Shown: positions 516 to 64,000, counted from the first letter of the stretch. The stretch: 64,000 nt of DNA from Candidatus Bathyarchaeia archaeon (GCA_038883655.1 JAVZLQ010000004.1:160001-224000); one strand, 5' to 3'. Notes: generated from the letters alone by a model not told the origin. Made by a program: numbers and translations.

Positions 516-632
516 TGCGGCGGGCCGGATTTGAACCGGCGAACCCCTACGGGAGAGGATGGCTCATAGGAGTTTAGCCTTTAAACATCGATCTTGAGTC
601 CTCCGCCTTTGACCTGGCTTGGCTACCGCCGC
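516..632 (-). tRNA. tRNA-Leu(CAA) with a 32-nt intron at canonical position 37/38 (intron about 561-592)
   Basis: Reverse complement: GCGGCGGTAGCCAAGCCAGGTCAAAGGCGGAGGACTCAAG[intron]ATCCTCTCCCGTAGGGGTTCGCCGGTTCAAATCCGGCCCGCCGCA. Long variable arm; CTCA/TGAG bulge-helix-bulge helix; 85 nt mature. Confidence 0.93.
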
Positions 633-9031: not shown

Positions 9032-9586
9032 CTACTTTGACAGGAGCATTTCTATAAGCGCTTTTTGGTCTACTTCTGCGCGTGTCCGCCAATCCAAATA
9101 CAACTGTTCATTTTCATCTTGCGTCAGATAACCATACCTAATGTAGCGGTCAATGTTGACGTCGACCTTCCACCCTGGAAGCTTCTCGCGTAAGAGTTCC
9201 TCAACTTCCTTTCTTGGAGCTTTCCCCTTCTTTGATATTATGTAGGCTATGGCTATTGCAAGTCCAGCTAAGTCGTCTATTCTCCACCCAATCATCTTCG
9301 CCTCTTTAGGCGTTAACTCGCCTCGTAATGTTATGTAGAACCTTGCTCTATCCAAATCTTCCAATGTTGGATTTTCCTTCGGCTTATCCTCCTCAAAGAC
9401 GGTTTTGACCTGCAAGTCCAAAGTCTTCAAGTGCTCGTCCAGAAGCTTGAGAACTTTTGGGTAGTCTGCTCCAAGGGATTTTCGCAGTTCCCATCCTTTT
9501 ACGCCTGGCTTTTTGTGTCGTCTATAAAATAGCATGTGAACTGCCCTCTTCATTTTGCTTGCGTAGTAAGCTTTGCGTTTGCTCAT
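9032..9586 (-). CDS. Tandem winged-helix kite protein (Nse1/Nse3-MAGE/ScpB-like) of an SMC complex
   Basis: Two predicted wHTH halves (YPKVLKLLDEHLKTLDLQVKTV; LAIAIAYIISKKGKAPRKEVEELL...YIRYGYL...LYLDWRTRAEV). Third gene of the SMC operon, with an ATGA overlap. Confidence 0.65.
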   Translation of the reverse strand: MSKRKAYYASKMKRAVHMLFYRRHKKPGVKGWELRKSLGADYPKVLKLLDEHLKTLDLQVKTVFEEDKPKENPTLEDLDRARFYITLRGELTPKEAKMIGWRIDDLAGLAIAIAYIISKKGKAPRKEVEELLREKLPGWKVDVNIDRYIRYGYLTQDENEQLYLDWRTRAEVDQKALIEMLLSK

Positions 9587-10410
9587 TTTAGGCGTTCTCC
9601 CTTGCGTTTAAGCCATTCTTCTGGTGAGATGGCTATGGGCACGGAAACTAGCTGTTTTTTACCAAGTTTGGCTGGAGGCTTCTCGTAGGGTTTTATGAAA
9701 ATCTCCTCTTCAAGTGGACGGATCTCTAATGTTGCATAGCCATATGTGATTAAGAAGCTTGTCATAAAAGCCCTATGGACTGTTTCCTCATATGTTTCAG
9801 CCATGATGAAGTCCCAATAACTTATCTTTTCATCTTCACCTTGTTCGGCGGTTTTATTTTTGAGTTCGCGCCAAAAGTTTTCCAGTTCTTCGGAGAAGGC
9901 TTTGTCCAGCAGTATTCTCTGTTCTATTAGTTCTTTGCGTGTTGCCTTGCCCGCTTCGGCTTCCATCGGCAGAGGTTCCTTCCACCTCTCTTTCAGTGGC
10001 AGTAAGCTTTCCCAGTATCGTATTGCCTCTGCTAGGCTGTGAAGTGAAATTTGCTCCAATTCGACTGTTGGATGCCAAGCGTAAAGGAAACTTTCAACAA
10101 TGTCTTCTTTTTCTATCCGCCTTATCTTCTCTTCTAGCAGGAATGGGTCTGTGTAAAGCGACGTTGAACGGTGTTTAACCCACTCGCTTTGCAGTTTTAT
10201 GACCGAGGCTATGTGATGTATTGTTTCAGCGTCTAGGCATAGATCTTCTGGGATTTCCCATTCTGGAAAATACTCCTTAACCGTTGCTATAATGTCGTCC
10301 ACGTCTATCAAGAACGGGTCTAGGGAGCGCTCCTCCACGGATCTGCACATTTCAATTATGCGCTGGAGCTTCTCCCTACCAGCCTTTATTCGCTCCTTCT
10401 TTGACTGCAT
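9583..10410 (-). CDS. Kleisin (ScpA/Nse4-like)
   Basis: ScpA-like N-terminus LDPFLIDVDDII...DLCLDAETIHHIASVIKLQS and C-terminal wHTH ISYWDFI...ETVHRAFMTSFLITYGYATLE. Coupled to the SMC gene (TGATG overlap). Confidence 0.72.
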   Translation of the reverse strand: MQSKKERIKAGREKLQRIIEMCRSVEERSLDPFLIDVDDIIATVKEYFPEWEIPEDLCLDAETIHHIASVIKLQSEWVKHRSTSLYTDPFLLEEKIRRIEKEDIVESFLYAWHPTVELEQISLHSLAEAIRYWESLLPLKERWKEPLPMEAEAGKATRKELIEQRILLDKAFSEELENFWRELKNKTAEQGEDEKISYWDFIMAETYEETVHRAFMTSFLITYGYATLEIRPLEEEIFIKPYEKPPAKLGKKQLVSVPIAISPEEWLKRKGERLK

Positions 10411-12353
10411 CAAGTAACCTCGCGTATTATCGATTTGCCCTCAACATTTTGCACAGTAATTATGTTAATGGCTTCTTTTGCGAATGTCACTTGGCTTGGC
10501 GTGATTATAATGTATTGGGCGTTTGCATCTTTAACCATTGATATTAATATTTTAGCAATTAGCTCGCGGTTTTTCGGGTCCATGTGGATATCATACTCGT
10601 CAACTGCCCTGAACGGTGAGCGGACGTGCTGTTGTAAGGCTAGAAGAAAGCTCATTGTGGCTGTTGTTCTTTCTCCACCGCTTTGCGTGTAAGCATCTAA
10701 TGGAACTGGTTTTGCACCCTTAAAGCCCACAAGAATCTCCAGTCCAGCAGCCTCAATGTCGTGCTCGTTAACAAGCCTAACTTCACCTACAGCTTGAGAT
10801 TGGCTTAAGATTTTCTGGTATTCTAAGCTTACGCGGTCGAGAAGGCTCTGGATGACTGTTCGCCAAGCTTGCATCCTCGTCTTAATCTCTTCAAGTGCTT
10901 TTTCCCTGTTTTCCGCAACAAGCCTAGCCTTATCCTTGAGCTCCAAATACAGTTTTGAGTAGGATTCATACATGCGTTCTATGTCCTCTGAAACGTTTGA
11001 AAGTGCTGCCAGGTGCCCATCCGTAACCCTCAATTCATCCAAGATTTCGCCTACGCTCTTGACAACCGCAATTCTTGGTCCAGTTTGCTCTGCGCGGTTT
11101 ATGGCTTCATTTAACTGTGCCTTTGCGCTTTTTAGTTGTTGCTCGATTTCTTCCAAATCCGCTTTGACGTTTTCACGGCGGAACTGAAGCAAAGCCAGCT
11201 TAACGCGGTTTTCTAGAACTTGGCTGCCGACTTTTTCGATGTTTTCATCTAGGCTTTTGATTTTCAACTGGTTTTCATCTATCTTGCCCTTCAACTTTAA
11301 AAGGTTTTGACTAAAGCTTTGTATAAGCTCTTTAAGATTTTCGGCTCTTAAGAGTTTAAACTGCGCGTTTTCTTGCACGGGCGGGTTTAAGCCTTCTCCG
11401 GAAAACCTTTCAAATGTTGAGGTTTCCTTTAGAAGCTGTTCGTAAATGGCGACTGTAGCTTCGTTTCCAGCCTTTTCACGTTCAAGACTTAAGCGTTCCT
11501 CAAATAACGTTTTCCACTCGCTTCTCAACTTTTCCAGTTCACTTTGATGCGTGTTTAGGTGCTCTTCCACTTCGCTTGTTTCTTTTTCGATTTGGCTTAA
11601 AGTGGCCAGCCGCCTTCTCTTTTCAGCTTCCAACCCGTTTATTGTTTCTTCTCTTCTGGCAACTTCTGCCCACGCCAGCTCCCTCTCCAAAAACCGCCTC
11701 TTCGTCATTAGCTGCTTTTTCTCTTGGTATCGCTCGTACTGTTCCCGCCAATAATTGAGTGTCTGTTCGGCGGATTCCAAAAGCTTGCTTATGGATTCTT
11801 CTTGGCTTAGGATTCGCGTTAACTTTTTCTGCGCTTCCAAAACATTGACGCGGAAAGGCTCCAGTCCAACAGCTGCTTCTACCATGCGTAGCTTTTGTTG
11901 TTGCGAGAGCACTGTGAACTGTTCAACCATGTTTTGATGCATTATTATGAGCATGTTGTTCGGGTCGACGCCAAGCTTTGAGAGGAATCTGTCAACCTCC
12001 GCCTTCGTAACAGCCCTATTCTCCAACTCAAACCAGTACTGCCCATCCCTACGCAAAACACGCGTGAGAAAAATCTGATCCTTGTTAAATTTTGGAACTG
12101 GGCGCCTCCCGCCTTTCTTAGCGTTATCCAAAATTAGCGTGACGCGCGCTTGGTCCTTGCCCCAACGAATCAAGTCGCTCAATTTCCTAGAACGTTCAGT
12201 ATAAGACTGCCCAAGAGCTACAGAAATAGCTAATAAAAGCGAGGATTTTCCAGAACCATTCGGACCGCAAACAACATTTACGCCTGGTTTAAGGGGTACC
12301 CTAGCGTACTCGTAGCTCATGAAGTTTTCAAGGATTACCTCGCTGACGAGCAT
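10410..12353 (-). CDS. Short SMC-family ATPase with an Smc5/6-like head
   Basis: ENFMSY, Walker A GPNGSGKSS, Q-loop IMHQ, long coiled coil, signature QSGGE and Walker B/D-loop PFRAVDEYDIHMD. Only 647 aa. Confidence 0.9.
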   Translation of the reverse strand: MLVSEVILENFMSYEYARVPLKPGVNVVCGPNGSGKSSLLLAISVALGQSYTERSRKLSDLIRWGKDQARVTLILDNAKKGGRRPVPKFNKDQIFLTRVLRRDGQYWFELENRAVTKAEVDRFLSKLGVDPNNMLIIMHQNMVEQFTVLSQQQKLRMVEAAVGLEPFRVNVLEAQKKLTRILSQEESISKLLESAEQTLNYWREQYERYQEKKQLMTKRRFLERELAWAEVARREETINGLEAEKRRRLATLSQIEKETSEVEEHLNTHQSELEKLRSEWKTLFEERLSLEREKAGNEATVAIYEQLLKETSTFERFSGEGLNPPVQENAQFKLLRAENLKELIQSFSQNLLKLKGKIDENQLKIKSLDENIEKVGSQVLENRVKLALLQFRRENVKADLEEIEQQLKSAKAQLNEAINRAEQTGPRIAVVKSVGEILDELRVTDGHLAALSNVSEDIERMYESYSKLYLELKDKARLVAENREKALEEIKTRMQAWRTVIQSLLDRVSLEYQKILSQSQAVGEVRLVNEHDIEAAGLEILVGFKGAKPVPLDAYTQSGGERTTATMSFLLALQQHVRSPFRAVDEYDIHMDPKNRELIAKILISMVKDANAQYIIITPSQVTFAKEAINIITVQNVEGKSIIREVT

Positions 12354-12554
12354 CTGCCATTCTTTTCCTCTAGCGCCTTCCCTACTGCAGTATAAAATAG
12401 AGGATAAAAACTCTTATTAAAACAATTAGGCAAGAAGGGGTTGGGGCTAATCTTTATTTTAACAAAATTTTGGACCCATGTTATGTATGTGTGGATATGC
12501 AAAACGCAAAACTTTAGTCTTCAACTCCATACAATAATTGTTGGCGATATCGAA

Positions 12555-13241
12555 ATGGTTGTTGCTGGCAAAGTGTTTAGGCTCGCGGAACAGCTTTCGT
12601 TGGCTGAAGTTGCTTCTAGGCTTAAGGATTATCGTGTTGAAGAGCCTTATGAGGAGGGCGATTACAAGTTTACGCTTGTTAGCGAAGTTGTTGGGCTTCT
12701 TTCAAAAGAAGGTGGGCTTCGGGGCATCTACTCCCATGATTACGTTATTCACGTTTTTCATAGGGGCAAGATGGCGCCTTTGCCACGCACAGTTGAAGCA
12801 CTGTTCAGTTTTGCAGAACATGGAAAAGCCACGTTTTTGACTGTTGTGGAGAAGAAGCGTCTAGCCAACTTCATAGCCAACAAGCTCAGCGAAATCCTAT
12901 TCGAGAAGGTTGGCGGAATAGTTGAAGCCCGAATCCCGCCTGAAACTTTGAGGGACTTCCACTTGAAGAATCCTGAAGATACGAAGATAACGTTTTTCGA
13001 TAACGTTGACATTCCAAACGTGAACAAGCTTTCGCTTTATGGACCAGACCTAATCAACACTTCGCTTTTCGAAGACTACTGCAAACATGGCGACCTCTGG
13101 TACGTCGTCGCAAGAACTAGAGAATACGGCTATGTGGTTGGCATAACCCGCGACGCGTCAGTCACGATATTCAACCTAACAGACAAAGAAAGATACTTGG
13201 AGTACGTGCAGAAGGAAGTTTACCCGCTAATAGCTAAATAG
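12555..13241 (+). CDS. Conserved archaeal hypothetical protein, divergent from the SMC operon
   Basis: Long ORF with globular alpha/beta composition; ATG 12555 preferred over TTG 12441. Confidence 0.7.
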   Translation: MVVAGKVFRLAEQLSLAEVASRLKDYRVEEPYEEGDYKFTLVSEVVGLLSKEGGLRGIYSHDYVIHVFHRGKMAPLPRTVEALFSFAEHGKATFLTVVEKKRLANFIANKLSEILFEKVGGIVEARIPPETLRDFHLKNPEDTKITFFDNVDIPNVNKLSLYGPDLINTSLFEDYCKHGDLWYVVARTREYGYVVGITRDASVTIFNLTDKERYLEYVQKEVYPLIAK

Positions 13242-13297: not shown

Positions 13298-14719
13298 TTG
13301 TCCTTTTTAAGGAAATTTAAGGAAAAATTAACTCCACCGAACGCGTCCATTTCTTTGGAACTTGCGAAATGGCGATTCAGCCCAGGCGAAACCATTGAAG
13401 GCAAAGTTGTAGTCAAATCGGAAGAAGATTTTGACGCCGTTGGAATACGATGCGAAGTAGAATGCATCGAGGAAATTAAAAGTAGAGTAAGCGAGTACAA
13501 TTCGTCAAGAAAACGCATGATTGAAAGAGACGTCTGGAATAGAATTACGCATTTTGCGGAAAAACCAACGATTTGTGGTCCAATACACATCACAAAAGGG
13601 TCAACACAAGCTTTCCCAATAAGCATTAAGCTCCCAACAAGCGCATGGCTATCTCATAAAGGAGTTGACCGCAAGCTTACATGGATCATTAAGGGCGTAG
13701 TAGCCGTTGAAGGTAGACCAGACGCCACAAGCAAAACCATAGAAATTGAAGTTGGCGAGCCACAGCAAATTCAGCCTCCGCCACCACCGCCAATACCAGC
13801 TCCTGCTCCACAAGTGGCAGCACCTACTAGTCAAACAGCAGCCGCGCCTCCGCCGCCGAGTATGCCTTTGCCAACAAACTGTGGCAGATGTGGCGCTCCA
13901 TTAGGCGTGTCACATGAGGATTTGGTTGTAACTTGCAGATACTGTGGCTTTACCATGACTGTGGCAACGAGAGAAGAAGTAAGAAGGCACAGCATGTTGG
14001 AGAACCGTTTGTTCGCTCAGCAAGCCGTTGAAGCAGCGCGGAAGTACATGGATAAAGGCATTTTTAGGGTTGGTGTTTCAAAGGAAGCCGTTATAACAGA
14101 TGTGAAACTTCGTTACGTGCCCTTCTGGGTTTGCCAAGTAACCACAAACACCTATTTTAGGGGCGTTACTGGAACTGGAATTATGGGCGAAATCCACCAG
14201 GCGCAAGAGGCAGTTACAGACAAGAGGTCAAGTGGACTGGCAAAATTTGGAAAGCTCGTTCTTGCAGGAGTAAAAGCCTACGCTGAAACCCAACAGAAGG
14301 ACAGACGACCACAAACAGTAGCGTATTCCTTCTCTAACACTTATATTTGGCCGACTTTGGCTAGGCGGACAATGATAAGCGAAATAAACTATTATGATGT
14401 GCCAGCCGCGCGAAAGATTCCCTTTGACGTTGGGAAGATACCGTCAGATGTGGAATTCCTAAACATAGAGTTGAATGAGGAGGAAGCCAAAATGAAGATT
14501 AAAGCGGAAGTCGAAGCAAGGGAGCGGCTAATCGCTTCTGGGAAAGTGGACACACTTGAGACTTGCAGTACAAGTATTGTCATGGGTGAAATGGAGCTTG
14601 TTCACGCTCCAGTTTGGTTTGTGCATTACACTTTGGGCGGCGAAAACTACGTTGTCGCCGTTGATGGTTGCGAGGGGAAAGTTTTAGGTGGGGGAAGACC
14701 GCTATTTAAAATCAAATAG
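13298..14719 (+). CDS. Arrestin-N/SpoOM-like beta-sandwich, Pro-rich linker, Zn ribbon and YdjG-like C-terminal domain
   Basis: ISLELAKWRFSPGETIEGKVVV...FPISIKLP...TWIIKGVVAVEG; PPPPPP linker; CGRC...CRYC; LRYVPFWV...APVWFVHY...VAVDGCEGKV. Confidence 0.65.
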   Translation: MSFLRKFKEKLTPPNASISLELAKWRFSPGETIEGKVVVKSEEDFDAVGIRCEVECIEEIKSRVSEYNSSRKRMIERDVWNRITHFAEKPTICGPIHITKGSTQAFPISIKLPTSAWLSHKGVDRKLTWIIKGVVAVEGRPDATSKTIEIEVGEPQQIQPPPPPPIPAPAPQVAAPTSQTAAAPPPPSMPLPTNCGRCGAPLGVSHEDLVVTCRYCGFTMTVATREEVRRHSMLENRLFAQQAVEAARKYMDKGIFRVGVSKEAVITDVKLRYVPFWVCQVTTNTYFRGVTGTGIMGEIHQAQEAVTDKRSSGLAKFGKLVLAGVKAYAETQQKDRRPQTVAYSFSNTYIWPTLARRTMISEINYYDVPAARKIPFDVGKIPSDVEFLNIELNEEEAKMKIKAEVEARERLIASGKVDTLETCSTSIVMGEMELVHAPVWFVHYTLGGENYVVAVDGCEGKVLGGGRPLFKIK

Positions 14720-14736
14720 GATAGGGAAGTTGGAAA

Positions 14737-15264
14737 ATGTCGGAAAAGGAAACCATAGAGAAAGTGAAGGATAGGCAAGGAATTCTCGCGAAAATCCAGA
14801 ACATTTTCGGCTTGGGCTACGCGACTAAAGAAGACTTAAGGGAGCTGGACAAGAAACTAAGGGACTTCTACTATGCCGATTTTAGGAGCTTGCGCCACAG
14901 ATGGGAAGAAATATACTTAGCGGCTTTGAACGCTGGAAAAGCCACAGACGACTTCAAAAAGGTTATACAGATAATGGACCGTGTTGCAGAGAAAGTTAAT
15001 CGCGCTGACTATGGGTATGCTGGGCTTATGGACCGAAAGGGACACATAAAAGAAACGGAATTAGCCCGCGTCTTCAACTATGACAAGACGTTAAGCGACG
15101 AGATTCAAAAAATAATTGACGCTGTAAATGACTTGTACAAGGATAGCCAAGCTGAAAACTGGGCTGAAGCCGCCGCGAAGGCTCGGAACATTAAATCCTT
15201 AATACTCGGTTTTGAGTCTAAATGGGATGAAAGAGAAAAACAGTTTAGACCAATGGAGGTGTAA
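14737..15264 (+). CDS. Alpha-helical protein of SPFH/Zn-ribbon operons
   Basis: Helical throughout, with GY..KE..RE.DK.LR and ADYGYAGL.D motifs; lies between the Zn-ribbon and SPFH genes. Confidence 0.65.
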   Translation: MSEKETIEKVKDRQGILAKIQNIFGLGYATKEDLRELDKKLRDFYYADFRSLRHRWEEIYLAALNAGKATDDFKKVIQIMDRVAEKVNRADYGYAGLMDRKGHIKETELARVFNYDKTLSDEIQKIIDAVNDLYKDSQAENWAEAAAKARNIKSLILGFESKWDEREKQFRPMEV

Positions 15265-15269
15265 GTCAA

Positions 15270-16340
15270 ATGCCAGTTATTGAAAGGGTTTCATGGGATT
15301 ATGCTGGACCAGAAGACATAGCCTACAGATTCCCAAAACTCACTTTGAAATATGGAAGCCAAGTCATAGTTAAAGAGAACCAGTGGGCAGTTTTCTTCCG
15401 CGACGGAAAAGCCTACGACGTTTTCGGTCCTGGAAGGCACACCATAACGAGTAATAATATTCCGCTTTTGACTGGCGCCTTGAAGGCGCTTCGAATTATA
15501 GGCGACATATTCGATTGCGAAGTTATTTTTGTAAGCAACAGCCAGTTTAGGGCAAACTTCGGCGGAACAGCCTATTCCGCGCCAAGCGGAGACATAAAAT
15601 ATCAGGCGGAGCTTGGATTTTACGGTTACATGCTCTATAAAGTTGAAGACCCGAAGCTTTTCGTGACTGAGTTCTTCGGAAACAGAAACGCAAGCACATC
15701 GAGGGACATTGAAAACTACATTAGAGGTTTCATAAACGAGCGCATAATAAACGAGTTCGCAAACTACGACATATTCACCCTTGTGCGGAATGTTGACGCA
15801 ACCACGGATAAAGTTACGCTGAAAATAAGCGACGAAGCTGCGAGAGTAGGCTTGAAAGTGATAGACTGCGTATTCGAAGGCGTAAAGATCCCAGAAGAAG
15901 CTAGGCGTTTCGCTTCTGGATTGGGCGCCCAAGCTATGGTGATGCAATACATGAAAGAAACCGCCACGGAACTCAAAGGAAGCGAGGGTGGAGGCGCAGC
16001 CGCCGCCGGATTAGGCGCAGGAATGGGCTTAACAATGCCGTACATCATGGCGCAGCAGATGCAGCAAACCCAAGCGCAACAGTTGGTTATATGTCCAAGT
16101 TGCGGTGCGAAAAACCCCGTTGGAATGAAGTTCTGCGGAAACTGCGGCGCAAGTTTGGCTCCGCAAGCAAAGGTTATTTGTCCAAAGTGCAAAGCTGAGA
16201 ATCCGGCTGGAATGAAGTTCTGTGGGAACTGCGGTTCGCCCTTAACCTCGTCGACCAGCGAAGTTGCATGTCCGAAGTGTGGCACGAAGAATCCTGCTGG
16301 GACAAAGTTCTGCGGAAACTGCGGCGAAAAACTAGCCTAA
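15270..16340 (+). CDS. SPFH (band 7, YdjI-like) protein with three C-terminal zinc ribbons
   Basis: GSQVIVKENQWAVFFRDGKAYDVFGPGRHT, Gly/Ala helix AAGLGAGMG, and 3x CPxCxxxNPxGxKFCGNCG. Confidence 0.9.
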   Translation: MPVIERVSWDYAGPEDIAYRFPKLTLKYGSQVIVKENQWAVFFRDGKAYDVFGPGRHTITSNNIPLLTGALKALRIIGDIFDCEVIFVSNSQFRANFGGTAYSAPSGDIKYQAELGFYGYMLYKVEDPKLFVTEFFGNRNASTSRDIENYIRGFINERIINEFANYDIFTLVRNVDATTDKVTLKISDEAARVGLKVIDCVFEGVKIPEEARRFASGLGAQAMVMQYMKETATELKGSEGGGAAAAGLGAGMGLTMPYIMAQQMQQTQAQQLVICPSCGAKNPVGMKFCGNCGASLAPQAKVICPKCKAENPAGMKFCGNCGSPLTSSTSEVACPKCGTKNPAGTKFCGNCGEKLA

Positions 16341-37954: not shown

Positions 37955-38045
37955 GGGCCCGTAGCTCAGCTAGGTTAGAGCGACAGGCTCATAAACAGCG
38001 CATTGAGAAACCTGTTGGTCGCCGGTTCAAATCCGGCCGGGCCCA
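37955..38045 (+). tRNA. tRNA with CAT anticodon, probably Ile2, with a 16-nt intron at 37/38 (about 37994-38009)
   Basis: GGGCCCGTAGCTCAGCTAGGTTAGAGCGACAGGCTCATA[AACAGCGCATTGAGAA]ACCTGTTGGTCGCCGGTTCAAATCCGGCCGGGCCCA. The GGGCCC acceptor stem is Ile-type; CTCA/TGAG forms the BHB helix. Confidence 0.88.
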
Positions 38046-41780: not shown

Positions 41781-41808
41781 TCTTAACGTATTCCTCCTTT
41801 CCAGTTTA

Positions 41809-41857
41809 TGGTTCAACCCTTTTCTTTAGGGTTACATTCCAGCGGACGTTGTCCGCC
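41809..41857 (-). promoter_or_regulatory. Structured 5' leader of rpl15e (candidate r-protein leader)
   Basis: Hairpins GCGGAC-AAC-GTCCGC and GGAATGT-AACCCT-loop-AGGGTT-GAACC lie upstream of the GGAGG SD. Confidence 0.55.
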
Positions 41858-61774: not shown

Positions 61775-64000
61775 ATGTTGAGGATAAAAAAACTTGTGTC
61801 GATTATGATGTTGTTGCTTTTGGCGTTACCGATCTCTCCCGTTTTTGCTGGAGTAAAACTTGAGGCGTTTGCCGATGGTTCTGCTTATTTAACGGGCAAC
61901 ATAATTGATAGAGGCGTAGACATAGACTATGATGTAGATTTTGACTATCTGGAAGTTAGCGTTGAAATCAATGTCACATTAGCGGGGTATTATGAAGTTT
62001 ATATTTCCAATCTTAGGGATCTTAGCGGCAATTACATTAGTGTTTATGGCTATAGCTACTCGTATCTTAATGTAGGTGTACAATTTGTGTACCTCGCATT
62101 AAACGGCGAACAGATTTATTCTTCTGGGCGTAACCCCAGCAGTGTTTCATATATAGCGCTATACGATGAAGAATGGAACCTTTTAGGAAGCCTTTCTGGT
62201 GTGCCTCTCTCCCGAGAATATCACTACTATGAGTTTGACCTCCCACCAGCTTATTTTACAGGTGCAATTTCCGATGAGGGGATGGATGCTGATGGGGACG
62301 GAAAGTTTGATTACCTTAAAGTTGGCGTGGAAGTTAGCGTAATAGAAGAAGGGCTATATCAAGTTGGCATATCTGGACTGGTTGCAGGTAGCAATAACAT
62401 TTACGTATCTGATTTTGATGTTTCGCCTTTGAATATGGGCACGCAGTATGTGTATCTAAAGCTTCATGGTCCAACAATCTATTCATCAAATTTAAATGCA
62501 ACAGCGGTGAGTTACATGTACCTTTACAAGATCGATTACTTCTACTCAAAATGGCTAGGAAGCATAAGTGACATTCCGCTTTCTCGTGAATATCACTATT
62601 ATGAGTTTGACCCTCCATTTGCTGATATAGAAGCAAAGTTTACAGTGTATCCCGACGGACGAGTAGTTATGGGTGGGACACTAAACTATACGCACCTTCC
62701 ATACCCCTACATTAGCGGAATGGATGCTTCTGGAGATGTAAGCTTTAAAGGGACAGATGGTTCAACAGAGATGTCTGCAAACATTGCCTTTATGGTTCAA
62801 GAACACATTGCAGATGTGTTCCCATATTATGGCACGTCTTTCCAACTAAATGGCACATACCTTGGCGGGATGGCGGACATTGGCATAACTGCATCTGTCA
62901 ACTTCCCAGAAAGCTTGGCATCGCAATTCCCGCTAAACCTATCGGACTTTACGGTAATAGCTGACTATGCAAACAACGAATTAACTGGCACAATAACAGT
63001 ACCATTAATTTCGGGCATGCCCATAGCCACACTAAACGTGAACTTTCATGGAAACATAACAGACCTATTCCTCAGCGATGAGCTTGAAGTGGTTTATGGC
63101 ACATACTTTGGCTACGAAGTAAACGAGACTATTGTGGAAAACTTGCTTCTGCAGTTAAATAGCACGATTCCTGGAAAAGGATCAGGCTCGTTATATGAAT
63201 TTACACAGGGCATACTTGAGTGTATTTGGCTTAACACAACCATGGATAAAAGGACTGACGGGGCAACAATATCATTCAACGCGTATATCCATGGAGATTT
63301 CATTCGATACTTTGTATTAGTCATGTCAGGCTATGAGAACTCAGGTTTATACCGGCTCTTAAACGCGCTCGTTTACTCAATTGAAACTGGCCAGTTTGAG
63401 CTTTCCTATGCGAAAACATTCGGAACAGCTTCGATGGATTTGGACTTTACTGCTAACATCGCTAGATTGTGGTCAACGCTTGAGGAGACTATACCTCCAG
63501 ACGTCCCACCACAACAGAGAGAGCCAATAGAGCTTTTCTTAAACACAACTTTTTGCACGGTGGAATCCGCGCAAGTTTATTGGACATACGCAAACTGTAG
63601 GTCAGACATGCAGATAAACGCTACAATTGGCGGCGATTTCAACACTGAGCTCAACTTCATCAAAAATCTATACGTGACATATGTCAGTCCGTACCCACCC
63701 TCAATATGGCAATTTATCAACAGCACCGAATTAGACCTAAGCAATCTGCATGTCACATTTAACGTGACCAGAACGTCTATGCTCCGTAGAAAACTTTGTG
63801 GTAAAACCACCAACAGACCCTGTTGATTCCAACCCTAACCAGTTTAAACTCACAAGATTCTTTAACCTAACTTATTCGCCTTACGGCGAACCCCCAACAA
63901 AAGATTCAAGGCTAAAAATAACCGTTGAGGGAGGATACAACTCAACTCATACGGTCACCATGATAAGCCCGCCAACAGTACCGCCGCCAGACATTGTATC
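61775..64000 (+). CDS. Large secreted/surface protein with two N-terminal Ig-like repeats; frameshift near 63780, continues off the window
   Basis: Signal peptide, two repeats of about 124 aa with D.G.D.D.D..FDYL.V.VE, and many sequons. The alternative frame from about 63784 (SVENFVVKPPTDP...) is open to the window end. Confidence 0.7.

What the first reader, a model, noticed from the sequence alone, without database searches (positions are those of the whole stretch)
9032..12353. Minimal archaeal Smc5/6-like complex: hinge-less SMC, kleisin and Nse1/3-like kite in one coupled operon
Seen: three translationally coupled genes. The 647-aa ATPase has head motifs ENFMSY...GPNGSGKSS and QSGGERTTATMSFLLALQ...SPFRAVDEYDIHMD. 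The turn of its coiled coil (about aa 310-345) has no room for a roughly 150-aa globular hinge and no CxxC zinc hook. Known: canonical SMCs are about 1100-1200 aa; eukaryotic Smc5/Smc6 carry SGGERS...PFR.xDE...MD, while condensin Smc has SGGEK...P...LDE.DA.LD; Smc5/6 uses the kleisin Nse4 and tandem-WH kites Nse1/Nse3; short archaeal SMC-like proteins such as coalescin ClsN exist. Inferred: the 276-aa gene is a kleisin, and the 184-aa gene resembles MAGE/Nse kites (..L.WRTRAE) more than ScpB. Together they would form a half-length, single-kite version of Smc5/6 that must dimerise differently. It could act in chromosome organisation or in restricting extrachromosomal DNA; no JetD nuclease is adjacent.
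Basis: partly seen in the sequence, partly recalled or inferred. Interest (0 to 1): 0.85.

Follow-up and report, generated by a model that had tools for sequence, protein, structure and literature searches.

The report
Hinge-less archaeal Smc5/6-like operon
Three tightly packed genes in a Bathyarchaeia genome encode the already published archaeal relative of the eukaryotic Smc5/6 chromosome-maintenance complex, but its motor protein has short arms that end in a plain loop instead of a hinge, a build the papers I could search do not discuss.

Summary
Three overlapping minus-strand genes (647, 276 and 184 aa) are present.

- **ATPase.** It is an SMC-family protein. Both head halves match Smc5/Smc6 best, and it falls in a supported Smc5/6 clade apart from canonical SMC.
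- **The 276-aa protein.** It is an Nse4-type kleisin.
- **The 184-aa protein.** It folds as a tandem winged-helix kite closest to Nse1/Nse3/MAGE.
- **Arms.** They are two long helices joined by a 6-residue loop. There is no Pfam hinge and only one cysteine, so no zinc hook.

This scan has also noted it repeatedly on other genomes.

What those papers' main texts do not mention is the short, hinge-less build. It is the norm in this phylum: all 108 matching genomes of 201 have frames of about 580-780 aa. Eleven of 61 genomes have it as the only SMC-kleisin set found. Close relatives carry a hinge or a CxxC hook instead.

Function and dimerisation are inferred, not shown.

The parts
10410..12353 (-). 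647-aa SMC-family ATPase of the archaeal Smc5/6-related clade. Heads lie at both ends and the arms are short, with no hinge and no zinc hook.
   Evidence: ORF. Pfam SMC_N 3.4e-37 and no SMC_hinge. Best PDB sequence matches are Smc5 at 5.4e-31 and Smc6 at 1.2e-28. Head tree. Single Cys. Arm model.
11376..11393 (-). Codons for residues 321-326 (GLNPPV), the loop at the tip of the arm where a hinge or hook would sit.
   Evidence: It is the only low-confidence, non-helical stretch between helices 165-320 and 327-424 in the arm model. The heptad signal drops there. The region has indels and the highest variability among 120 close relatives and 55 distant ones.
9583..10413 (-). 276-aa kleisin of the Nse4 type (275 aa if it starts at the ATG at 10410).
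   Evidence: Pfam Nse4_C at 0.0017, below the cut-off, in this protein. Nse4_C hits 17 of 20 family members, best 3.4e-7. The family profile hits EID3/NSMCE4B at 6e-6, yeast Nse4 at 1.6e-5 and the ScpA N-domain at 0.028 in PDB. hhalign to the genome's own ScpA C-terminal WH gives 79% probability, E 1.6e-5.
9032..9586 (-). 184-aa tandem winged-helix kite, Nse1/Nse3 (MAGE)-like, with no cysteine and hence no RING.
   Evidence: No Pfam family. AF2 model pLDDT 88.9. Foldseek top hits are MAGE-G1/NSE1 and Nse1-Nse3-Nse4 at 2e-5 to 3e-4. VIA-align gives Z 13.2 over 168 residues to 7dg2_C, against ScpB Z 9.2 and JetB Z 8.9. The sequence has no Cys.
12391..12397 (-). TTTTATA, a TATA-box-like word about 40 nt upstream of the ATPase ATG. 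It is a possible operon promoter, identified by eye only.
   Evidence: Sequence read. No promoter scan or transcript data support it.

Best explanation
This is the Bathyarchaeia copy of the archaeal 'SMC5/6-related' SMC-kleisin-kite complex. It is encoded as one translationally coupled operon, beside a separate canonical Smc-ScpA-ScpB operon and an Mre11-Rad50 pair elsewhere in the same genome.

Shown here:
- The ATPase heads are Smc5/6-type.
- The partners are an Nse4-type kleisin and an Nse1/3-type kite.
- Each arm strand is about 155 residues, roughly 23 nm if a regular coiled coil (my estimate from helix rise).
- The arms end in a bare 6-residue loop, with no hinge and no zinc hook.

Inferred mechanism, not shown: two ATPase copies are held together at the head end only. 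ATP sandwiches the two heads. One kleisin bridges the neck of one copy and the cap of the other. A kite homodimer sits on the middle of the kleisin. DNA would then be clamped on top of the engaged heads inside the kleisin/kite compartment, as in solved Smc5/6 and MukBEF head modules. The short arms would act as a lever or gate, not as a hinge-closed ring. The complex would therefore work as an ATP-gated DNA clamp or tether in chromosome maintenance or repair, not as a classical hinge-closed loop extruder.
For: **Identity**
- Pfam SMC_N 3.4e-37.
- PDB phmmer best hits are Smc5 at 5.4e-31 and Smc6 at 1.2e-28, ahead of prokaryotic Smc at 1.6e-23.
- Heads alone: N-head scores Smc6 66 bits, Smc5 59, Smc3 56, prokaryotic Smc 41, Rad50 34. 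C-head scores Smc5 74, SMC6 53, prokaryotic Smc 48.
- Careful ML tree of 60 head sequences, rooted on the genome's own Rad50: a 47-row clade holds the window protein, 22 other short forms, 3 hook forms, 3 hinge-type forms and 18 long Smc5/6-like representatives (two of them checked, P0475 as Smc6 and P0479 as Smc5), with support 96/97. The 12 canonical archaeal SMCs form a separate clade with support 97/89.

**Partners**
- Kleisin.
- Kite.

**Operon**
- In 18 of 20 loci fetched across the phylum, the order ATPase-kleisin-kite is kept with abutting genes. One locus has the ATPase divergent and one is cut by a contig end.
- ATPase, kite and kleisin each match in 108 of 201 genomes. By my reading of the lists, 107 of these are shared.

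**Architecture**.

**Head-end assembly rather than tip dimerisation**
- Among 120 close relatives, heads and head-proximal coil are highly conserved (0.1-0.45 bits entropy). Residues 221-420, including the tip, are the most variable (0.7-1.4 bits) and carry indels.
- In more distant relatives the tip region varies in length by more than 100 residues.

**Housekeeping role**
- All three proteins are 75-95% identical across many Bathyarchaeia.
- The operon sits next to the RNA polymerase B/A'-L30e-NusA cluster.
- 11 of 61 genomes have this set but no canonical SMC match, including single-contig genomes G008 and G016 (cross-tabulated by eye).
Against:
- The full-length fold failed, so only residues 140-520 were modelled, with a 20-row alignment. 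I saw secondary structure and pLDDT, not coordinates. That the two long helices pack into an antiparallel hairpin is therefore inferred (pTM 0.54).
- A variable tip does not exclude dimerisation along the arms or through generic coiled-coil contacts.
- The tree has one outgroup sequence and no SMC1-4, bacterial SMC, MukB/JetC, RecN or ASRP rows. The link between the archaeal 25-row clade and the Smc5+Smc6 clade is weak (82/58).
- The 'long Smc5/6-like' rows are unlabelled representatives. Only two were checked against PDB.
- One earlier scan report on a sister operon is marked 'part of it fell', and I could not see which part.
Confidence: 0.8

Rival explanations
1. Same complex, different mechanics. 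The two arms associate side by side or tip to tip, RecN-like, so that a small closed ring forms and the complex entraps or extrudes DNA like a miniature condensin.
For: There is a strong heptad pattern along 165-213, 249-283 and 326-423, and two long uninterrupted helices. In lineages without a canonical SMC match (11 of 61 genomes), the complex may have to cover chromosome-organising duties. That RecN dimerises through its coiled-coil tip is recalled, not tested here.
Against: The tip and distal arm are the least conserved parts and vary in length, unlike known dimerisation modules. Relatives that do carry a hinge or a CxxC hook at that position show what a conserved tip module looks like in this clade.
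Confidence: 0.2
2. It is an anti-plasmid or anti-virus defence system of the Wadjet/Lamassu kind, rather than a chromosome-maintenance complex.
For: The ATPase gives generic PADLOC hits (mad3 2e-28, LmuB 5.9e-23, JetC 7.1e-10 over part of the protein). The kite fold also aligns to Wadjet JetB (Foldseek 1.1e-3; Z 8.9). A listed abstract says that eukaryotic Smc5/6 restricts viral replication (PMC9458440, search listing).
Against: The kleisin and kite match no PADLOC model at E up to 0.1. No nuclease or other effector gene abuts the operon here or in the 18 collinear loci. Sequences are very conserved and the three genes are present family by family across the phylum, unlike patchy defence islands. 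The operon lies beside core transcription genes.
Confidence: 0.1
3. It is a Rad50/SbcC-type or ASRP (ClsN/Sph)-type SMC-related ATPase, not an SMC proper.
For: The length (about 650 aa) resembles ASRPs. NCBIfam gives weak hits to Rad50 models (1.1e-23) and to ASRP (4.7e-19).
Against: All those hits are far below the curated cut-offs (ASRP 68 bits against 300). There is no CxxC, whereas the passages I read of PMC9389158 say that the vast majority of the ASRPs they analysed have a zinc hook. The genome has its own Mre11-Rad50 pair elsewhere. A kleisin and a kite are encoded alongside. The tree separates it from Rad50.
Confidence: 0.03
4. It is a truncated or decaying SMC gene, or an assembly artefact.
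For: It is half the length of canonical SMC.
Against: The same length class occurs in the 120 nearest database clusters (637-680 aa) and in 108 of 201 genomes with no internal stops listed. Head motifs are intact. Contig pieces identical or nearly identical to the window occur in four public runs.
Confidence: 0.01

Closest known systems
Archaeal 'SMC5/6-related' SMC complex: SMC5/6-related aSMC (Yoshinaga & Inagaki 2021, PMC8665677) with Nse4-related kleisin and Nse1/3-like kite in operons of TACK and Asgard archaea (van Hooff, Raas, Tromer & Eme, bioRxiv 10.1101/2024.01.07.573240)
   Same: It has the same three gene families in the same kind of operon, in the same archaeal group, and coexists with a canonical Smc-ScpAB set. 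I take the window's operon to be a member.
   Different: The sections and passages I read treat these as ordinary homodimeric SMC complexes joined at hinges. They mention neither short length nor a missing hinge: word searches for hinge, shorter, truncated and length, and sections read. Supplements of the preprint were not readable, and the GBE supplements were not opened, so they may list lengths.
Eukaryotic Smc5/6 holo-complex (Smc5, Smc6, Nse1-6)
   Same: The head sequence signature, the Nse4-type kleisin and the Nse1/Nse3-type tandem-WH kite are shared.
   Different: It has one SMC gene instead of a Smc5/Smc6 pair, one kite instead of Nse1 plus Nse3, and no RING (the kite has no cysteine). 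The ATPase is about 650 aa instead of about 1050-1100 aa, with no hinge. Nse2, Nse5 and Nse6 were not looked for.
Prokaryotic Smc-ScpAB (condensin-like), present in the same genome at C3 (L009)
   Same: It has the same SMC + kleisin + kite-dimer logic and the same operon order.
   Different: The canonical SMC is 1184 aa with a Pfam hinge. Its heads form a separate clade. The kite profile shows no similarity to the genome's own ScpB (hhalign probability 0.3%).
   Same: Heads are 52% identical over the first 300 residues for P0372, and all sit in the same clade.
   Different: The hook forms carry about 400 extra residues with a central CDKC/CERC motif at the exact middle. P0455 has a Pfam SMC_hinge at 4.6e-11. 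In the one locus examined with enough flank (L044), the hook form has no kleisin or kite neighbour.
ASRP family (ClsN/coalescin, Sph1/2; Yoshinaga et al. 2022, PMC9389158)
   Same: These are short archaeal SMC-superfamily ATPases of about 600 aa.
   Different: ASRPs form their own clade, and most carry a zinc hook (passages read). The window protein scores 68 bits against the ASRP cut-off of 300, has no CxxC, and comes with a kleisin and a kite.

Membership tests
Archaeal SMC5/6-related SMC-kleisin-kite complex | ATPase head groups with eukaryotic Smc5/Smc6 and apart from canonical archaeal SMC | tested here: met
   The Smc5/6-related clade has support 96/97 and the canonical clade 97/89 in a 60-row head tree rooted on Rad50. 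Head-only PDB scores agree.
Archaeal SMC5/6-related SMC-kleisin-kite complex | Nse4-related kleisin encoded next to the SMC gene | tested here: met
   The gene abuts the ATPase. The family profile hits Nse4/EID3 in PDB at 6e-6 and 1.6e-5. Pfam Nse4_C hits 17 of 20 members.
Archaeal SMC5/6-related SMC-kleisin-kite complex | Nse1/Nse3-like (not ScpB-like) kite encoded in the same operon | tested here: met
   The fold is closest to Nse1/Nse3/MAGE. Atlas features point to MAGE (0.91). There is no profile similarity to the genome's own ScpB. At sequence level there are only 2 of 20 weak SMC_Nse1 hits.
Archaeal SMC5/6-related SMC-kleisin-kite complex | Occurs in TACK/Asgard archaea, often beside a canonical SMC complex | tested here: met
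   Sources name the relatives Bathyarchaeia/Bathyarchaeota. The genome has its own Smc-ScpAB operon. Both sets occur in 26 of 61 phylum genomes (by eye).
Eukaryotic Smc5/6 holo-complex | Heterodimer of two paralogous SMCs (Smc5 and Smc6) | tested here: not met
   The ATPase query finds one match at E up to 1e-20 in the window's genome. The other SMC_N genes there are canonical SMC, Rad50 and ABC-type.
Eukaryotic Smc5/6 holo-complex | Hinge domain joining two arms of about 50 nm | tested here: not met
   No SMC_hinge hit. The arm model is two helices joined by a 6-residue loop. The protein is 647 aa, against 1010-1131 aa for the Smc5/6 representatives.
Eukaryotic Smc5/6 holo-complex | Nse1 RING finger, and the Nse2, Nse5 and Nse6 subunits | tested here: not met
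   RING: the single 184-aa kite has no cysteine (translation). Nse2, Nse5 and Nse6 were not searched for, so for them the status is 'not tested'.
Canonical prokaryotic Smc-ScpAB | SMC with Pfam hinge; ScpA and ScpB family partners | tested here: not met
   No SMC_hinge, SMC_ScpA or SMC_ScpB hit in the three proteins. TIGR02169 scores 181 bits against a cut-off of 729. The head lies outside the canonical clade.
ASRP (ClsN/Sph) and Rad50/SbcC | Zinc hook (CxxC) at the coiled-coil tip; score above the family model cut-off | tested here: not met
   Single Cys at position 29. ASRP scores 68 bits against 300, and Rad50 models 83 against 700 or worse.
Wadjet (JetABCD) / MksBEF / Lamassu | Family-specific kleisin and kite (JetA/JetB, MukF/MukE), and a nuclease or effector partner | tested here: not met
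   The kleisin and kite hit no PADLOC model at E up to 0.1. The neighbours are a 266-aa protein without a family, a 64-aa ORF and NusA. The kite fold does align to JetB and MukE at lower scores, as expected for any kite.

The most novel reading that the evidence does not exclude
Inside one Smc5/6-related clade, the module at the arm tip is interchangeable: a hinge in some members, a Rad50-like CxxC hook in others, and nothing at all in most Thermoproteota sampled. The 'nothing' form is a naturally hinge-less SMC-kleisin-kite machine. It works purely as a head/kleisin DNA clamp without a closed SMC ring. In lineages that have no canonical SMC, it is the only SMC-type chromosome organiser. If so, the hinge is dispensable for the core function of an Smc5/6-type complex, and the relatives of the eukaryotic Smc5/6 ancestor offer a minimal system in which to test what arms and hinge are for.
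Probability: 0.3. Interest if true: 0.75.

Novelty: new variant of a known kind. Interest (0 to 1): 0.5.

Why it matters
Models of SMC action, such as topological entrapment and loop extrusion by segment capture, assume two arms joined at a hinge. Here a natural complex has the complete head-kleisin-kite module but only short arms and no joining domain. It is widespread, strongly conserved, related to the eukaryotic Smc5/6 lineage, and in some lineages apparently the only SMC complex. It would therefore let one ask directly which SMC activities need a hinge. It also qualifies evolutionary scenarios that treat the archaeal Smc5/6-related proteins as ordinary hinge-dimerised SMCs. As a gene family it is not new, so the value lies in the architecture, not in the discovery of the operon.

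Tried and rejected
**Jobs that failed or were unavailable**
- Complex prediction, with two copies of arm residues 200-450 to test tip or arm self-association, was not available. Nothing was folded and there is no verdict.
- The full-length AlphaFold2 job on alignment A1 was polled and then reported as interrupted. After the stated wait I sent a smaller arm-only alignment, A5.

**Expression**
- No listed run is on record as RNA. Two runs labelled metatranscriptomic are marked by the tool as 'probably DNA'. Their contigs include pieces with 0-2 differences inside the kleisin and ATPase genes. I do not count this as evidence of transcription.

**Searches that found nothing**
- The kite profile against PDB sequences found nothing meaningful.
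- The kite against Pfam found nothing.
- The 266-aa upstream neighbour has no Pfam family and only 'hypothetical protein' clusters in the Atlas. It lies beside the ATPase in only 3 of the 19 other loci, so I rejected it as a fourth subunit.
- The hook-bearing long relatives as part of the same operon type: in L044 they have no kleisin or kite neighbour.
- A conserved Lhr helicase neighbour was reported by an earlier scan note on another genome. None of the window's ORFs of 350 aa or more that I scanned is a helicase. Smaller ORFs were not scanned.

**Literature**
- Searches for a description of a hinge-less or short archaeal Smc5/6-type SMC returned only the three papers cited.


Full report
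**1. What is in the sequence**

On the minus strand lie three ORFs: 10410-12353 (647 aa), 9583-10413 (276 aa) and 9032-9586 (184 aa).
- The first junction reads ...ACTTGATGCAG. The ATPase stop TGA is overlapped by the kleisin start, either TTG at 10413 or the ATG one codon later.
- The second junction reads AAAATGAGC, an ATGA overlap.
- About 40 nt upstream of the ATPase ATG is a TTTTATA word. I note it only by eye.

**2. The ATPase**

Family scans place it in the SMC family but in no curated equivalog.
- Pfam gives SMC_N at 3.4e-37 and no SMC_hinge.
- NCBIfam models for SMC, Rad50, ASRP and arcadin-4 all score far below their cut-offs.

Against PDB sequences, Smc5 and Smc6 are the best matches.
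- Whole protein: Smc5 at 5.4e-31 and Smc6 at 1.2e-28, ahead of prokaryotic Smc head constructs at 1.6e-23.
- Because those constructs are short, I repeated the search with the two head halves alone.
- Residues 1-200 score best on Smc6 (66 bits), then Smc5 (59), Smc3 (56), Smc2 (48), prokaryotic Smc (41) and Rad50 (34).
- Residues 470-647 score best on Smc5 (74), then human SMC6 (53), prokaryotic Smc (48) and Smc1 (33).

I then built a careful IQ-TREE tree on 360 head columns of 60 sequences.
- Rows: the window protein; 22 other short representatives; 3 long forms with a hook; 3 with a central non-coiled region; 18 long Smc5/6-like representatives; 12 canonical SMCs from this phylum; and the genome's own Rad50 as the sole outgroup.
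- A canonical clade is recovered with support 97/89. A clade holding everything else has support 96/97.
- The window protein lies in a 25-row archaeal sub-clade with support 95/91.

The 18 long rows are unlabelled representatives, so I checked two.
- P0475, named as a yeast protein, matches yeast Smc6 end to end at 1.8e-120.
- P0479 matches human SMC5 at 1.3e-125.
- They fall in the two fully supported sub-clades of 5 and 12 rows.

Limits of the tree:
- I left out L041 (1306 aa, an apparent insertion near the P-loop) and fragmentary representatives.
- No SMC1-4, bacterial Smc, MukB/JetC, RecN or ASRP sequences were available as stored proteins.
- The node joining the archaeal sub-clade to Smc5+Smc6 is weak (82/58).

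In an alignment of stored sequences the signature/Walker B region reads as follows.
- Window: QSGGERTTATMSFLLALQQHVRSPFRAVDEYDIHMDPKNRE.
- Smc5 representatives: QSGGE...SPFRVVDEINQGMDP.NE.
- Smc6 representatives: LSGGE...DEFDVFMD.
- Canonical SMCs: SGGE...F/Y..DE.DAH(L/M)D.

**3. No hinge, no hook**

- The protein has one cysteine, C29.
- Between residues 165 and 495 the only prolines are at 166, 324, 325 and 426. A crude heptad score is high along 165-213, 249-283, 326-423 and 445-507, and collapses at about 305-325.
- The full-length fold failed.
- A fold of residues 140-520 with 19 relatives has mean pLDDT 88.5. It gives helices 165-320 and 327-424 joined by the loop 321-326 (pLDDT under 50). 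Two short breaks follow at 425-433 and 451-457, then helix 458-518. There is no strand and no globular part.
- I did not see coordinates. The antiparallel hairpin is an inference from this pattern and from the need for the two head halves to meet.
- At about 0.15 nm per residue the arm would be roughly 23 nm. That is about half of the roughly 50 nm that a review abstract quotes for SMC arms (listing).

**4. The partners**

The 276-aa protein is an Nse4-type kleisin.
- It has a sub-threshold Pfam Nse4_C hit (0.0017, 19 bits against a cut-off of 26).
- Of 20 family members taken from across the phylum, 17 hit Nse4_C at E up to 0.05, best 3.4e-7.
- Their profile finds human EID3/NSMCE4B (6e-6) and yeast Nse4 (1.6e-5) in PDB, plus the ScpA N-terminal domain weakly (0.028) with its own N-terminus.
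- It also aligns to the C-terminal winged helix of the genome's own ScpA (hhalign 79%, E 1.6e-5).

The 184-aa protein is a tandem winged-helix kite of the Nse1/Nse3 type.
- It has no Pfam family, and its profile finds nothing in PDB by sequence.
- Its AlphaFold2 model (pLDDT 88.9, pTM 0.75) is a tandem winged helix.
- The best Foldseek matches are MAGE-G1/NSE1 and the Nse1-Nse3-Nse4 complex (2.2e-5 to 3e-4). JetB (1.1e-3), MukE and ScpB (5e-3) follow.
- VIA-align gives Z 13.2 over 168 residues to 7dg2_C and Z 10.6-10.9 to yeast Nse chains over 163-174 residues. ScpB scores Z 9.2 over 141 residues and JetB Z 8.9 over 155.
- Language-model features point the same way: a MAGE cluster at 0.91 and an NSE3 cluster at 0.80.
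- The kite profile shows no similarity to the genome's own ScpB (probability 0.3%).
- The kite has no cysteine, so it has no Nse1-type RING.

**5. Distribution and context**

- The window's genome (1.42 Mb, 19 contigs) also has a canonical operon: Smc (1184 aa, SMC_hinge 2.7e-23), ScpA and ScpB (1.6e-37). It also has an Mre11-like phosphoesterase next to a 695-aa Rad50-like ATPase.
- In a sample of 201 genomes of the phylum, the ATPase (E up to 1e-20), the kite and the kleisin profile each match in 108 genomes. The listed ATPase matches lie in open frames of about 580-780 aa, apart from one of 438 aa (G053).
- By my reading of the lists, 107 genomes have all three. G053 has a cut ATPase only, and G150 has kleisin and kite only.
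- Of 20 loci fetched, 18 keep ATPase-kleisin-kite abutting on one strand. One has the ATPase divergent about 2 kb away, and one is cut by a contig end.
- I cross-tabulated the first 61 genomes by eye for this ATPase and for the canonical SMC (35 of 61). Both are present in 26, the short form only in 11 (families f15 and f16, including single-contig genomes), canonical only in 9, and neither in 15.
- These are matches with single queries in a sample, not proofs of absence.

**6. Relatives with other tips**

- In a search of 1.84 billion representatives, 135 proteins match at 1e-30 or better. The nearest full-length ones are 550-690 aa.
They align to the window protein at both ends but carry about 400 extra residues.
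- At the exact middle of those residues lies ...C(D/E)(K/R)CGS..., a zinc-hook-like CxxC. In the tree they are nested among short forms, as sister of P0365 with support 100/99.
- One such gene (L044) has no kleisin or kite beside it. Its genome also holds a 651-aa-frame short form and a 1217-aa-frame canonical SMC.
- P0455 (835 aa, named as an Asgard archaeon) has a Pfam SMC_hinge at 4.6e-11 and branches at the base of the clade.
- P0420 (982 aa) has only a weak hinge hit (0.045), and P0448 (928 aa) has none. My 'hinge-type' label for those two rests on the look of their central sequence.
- So within one clade the tip can be a hinge, a hook, or nothing.
- Among 120 close relatives of the window protein, the distal arm and tip (221-420) are the fastest-evolving part and carry indels, while heads and proximal coil are nearly invariant. 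In distant relatives the region varies by over 100 residues.

**7. How it probably works**

Shown:
- An Smc5/6-type ABC head, with Walker A, signature and Walker B/D-loop motifs intact.
- A kleisin with both terminal domains.
- A kite.
- Short arms with a bare tip.

Inferred from solved SMC-kleisin complexes (established knowledge, not tested here):
- Two heads engage around two ATP.
- The kleisin N-domain binds the neck of one SMC and its C-terminal winged helix binds the cap of the other.
- A kite dimer binds the kleisin centre.
- DNA is clamped above the engaged heads.

With no conserved tip module, I think the dimer is most likely held only at the head end. I put this at about 0.5-0.6, against about 0.2 for arm or tip association. 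The complex would then be an ATP-gated clamp or tether rather than a hinge-closed ring.

A chromosomal maintenance or repair role is favoured over defence. The grounds are the strong conservation, the lineage-wide presence, the neighbourhood of core genes, and the lack of any effector or PADLOC match for the partners.

**8. Comparison with what is known**

- Yoshinaga & Inagaki 2021 (abstract, sections 10 and 14, and passages read) defined 80 'SMC5/6-related aSMC' homologs. These are mostly from TACK, including Bathyarchaeota, and were drawn from database entries of 500-1500 aa.
- van Hooff et al. (abstract and sections 8, 14 and 24 read) showed that many TACK and Asgard archaea carry a second operon with an SMC5/6-related SMC, an Nse4-related kleisin and an Nse1/3-like kite.
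- Both papers picture homodimeric complexes. Word searches for hinge, shorter, truncated and length found no remark on a missing hinge.
- Yoshinaga et al. 2022 (passages) set the ASRP/ClsN/Sph family apart, most of its members having a zinc hook.
- Seven literature searches turned up no description of a hinge-less Smc5/6-type archaeal SMC.
- This scan has already reported sister operons in at least 14 other genomes with the same reading. One of those reports is marked 'part of it fell', without saying which part.

**9. Verdict**

The operon is a member of a published family. The hinge-less build, its being the norm in this phylum, its presence as the sole SMC-kleisin set in some lineages, and the hinge/hook/none variety within one clade are, as far as I could search, undescribed. 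Mechanism and function remain inference.

Noticed in passing
L044:1657-4860 (+); proteins P0372, P0381, P0382: These are long (1016-1067 aa) relatives in the same clade. They have about 400 extra central residues and a CDKC/CERC zinc-hook-like motif at the exact middle. In L044 there is no kleisin or kite neighbour (next gene: gamma-glutamyltranspeptidase). That genome (G201) also has a short form and a canonical SMC, so three SMC-type ATPases coexist.
   Followed up: partly
phylum sample, genomes G000-G060 (families f15, f16): Eleven of 61 genomes, including single-contig G008 and G016, match the short Smc5/6-like ATPase but not the canonical SMC query. The hinge-less complex may be their only SMC-kleisin complex. 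Fifteen of 61 matched neither.
   Followed up: partly
window 12441-13241 (+): A divergently transcribed 266-aa protein (252 aa from the Atlas start) has no Pfam family. It is very conserved (1e-53 to 1e-69) and sits beside the ATPase in 3 of the 19 other loci. Atlas neighbours are all 'hypothetical protein' clusters of archaea.
   Followed up: partly
window 516-632 (-) and 37955-38045 (+): Rfam finds two tRNAs of 117 and 91 nt (45 and 62 bits), but ARAGORN reports no tRNA in the window. Their length suggests intron-bearing archaeal tRNA genes.
   Followed up: no
window 13298-16340 (+): This is a run of three genes. The first is a 473-aa protein with Arrestin_N/Spo0M-like N-domain (3.3e-7), a proline-rich linker and a zinc ribbon. 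The second is a 175-aa protein without a family. The third is a 356-aa SPFH/Band-7 protein ending in three zinc-ribbon repeats.
   Followed up: no
window 61775-63826 (+): A 683-aa ORF has no Pfam family at E up to 1e-5.
   Followed up: no
window 41805-41856 (-): Rfam matches the eL15-Euryarchaeota ribosomal protein leader (43.6 bits, gathering 33.7) in a genome that sources of related proteins call Bathyarchaeia. This is outside the group the family is named for.
   Followed up: no
The genome search, kleisin matches in about 25 genomes (for example G040, G112, G010, G039): Many kleisin profile matches are listed with one in-frame TGA, TAG or TAA inside the match. This is probably the profile running past the true stop into the overlapping kite gene. 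I did not check it.
   Followed up: no
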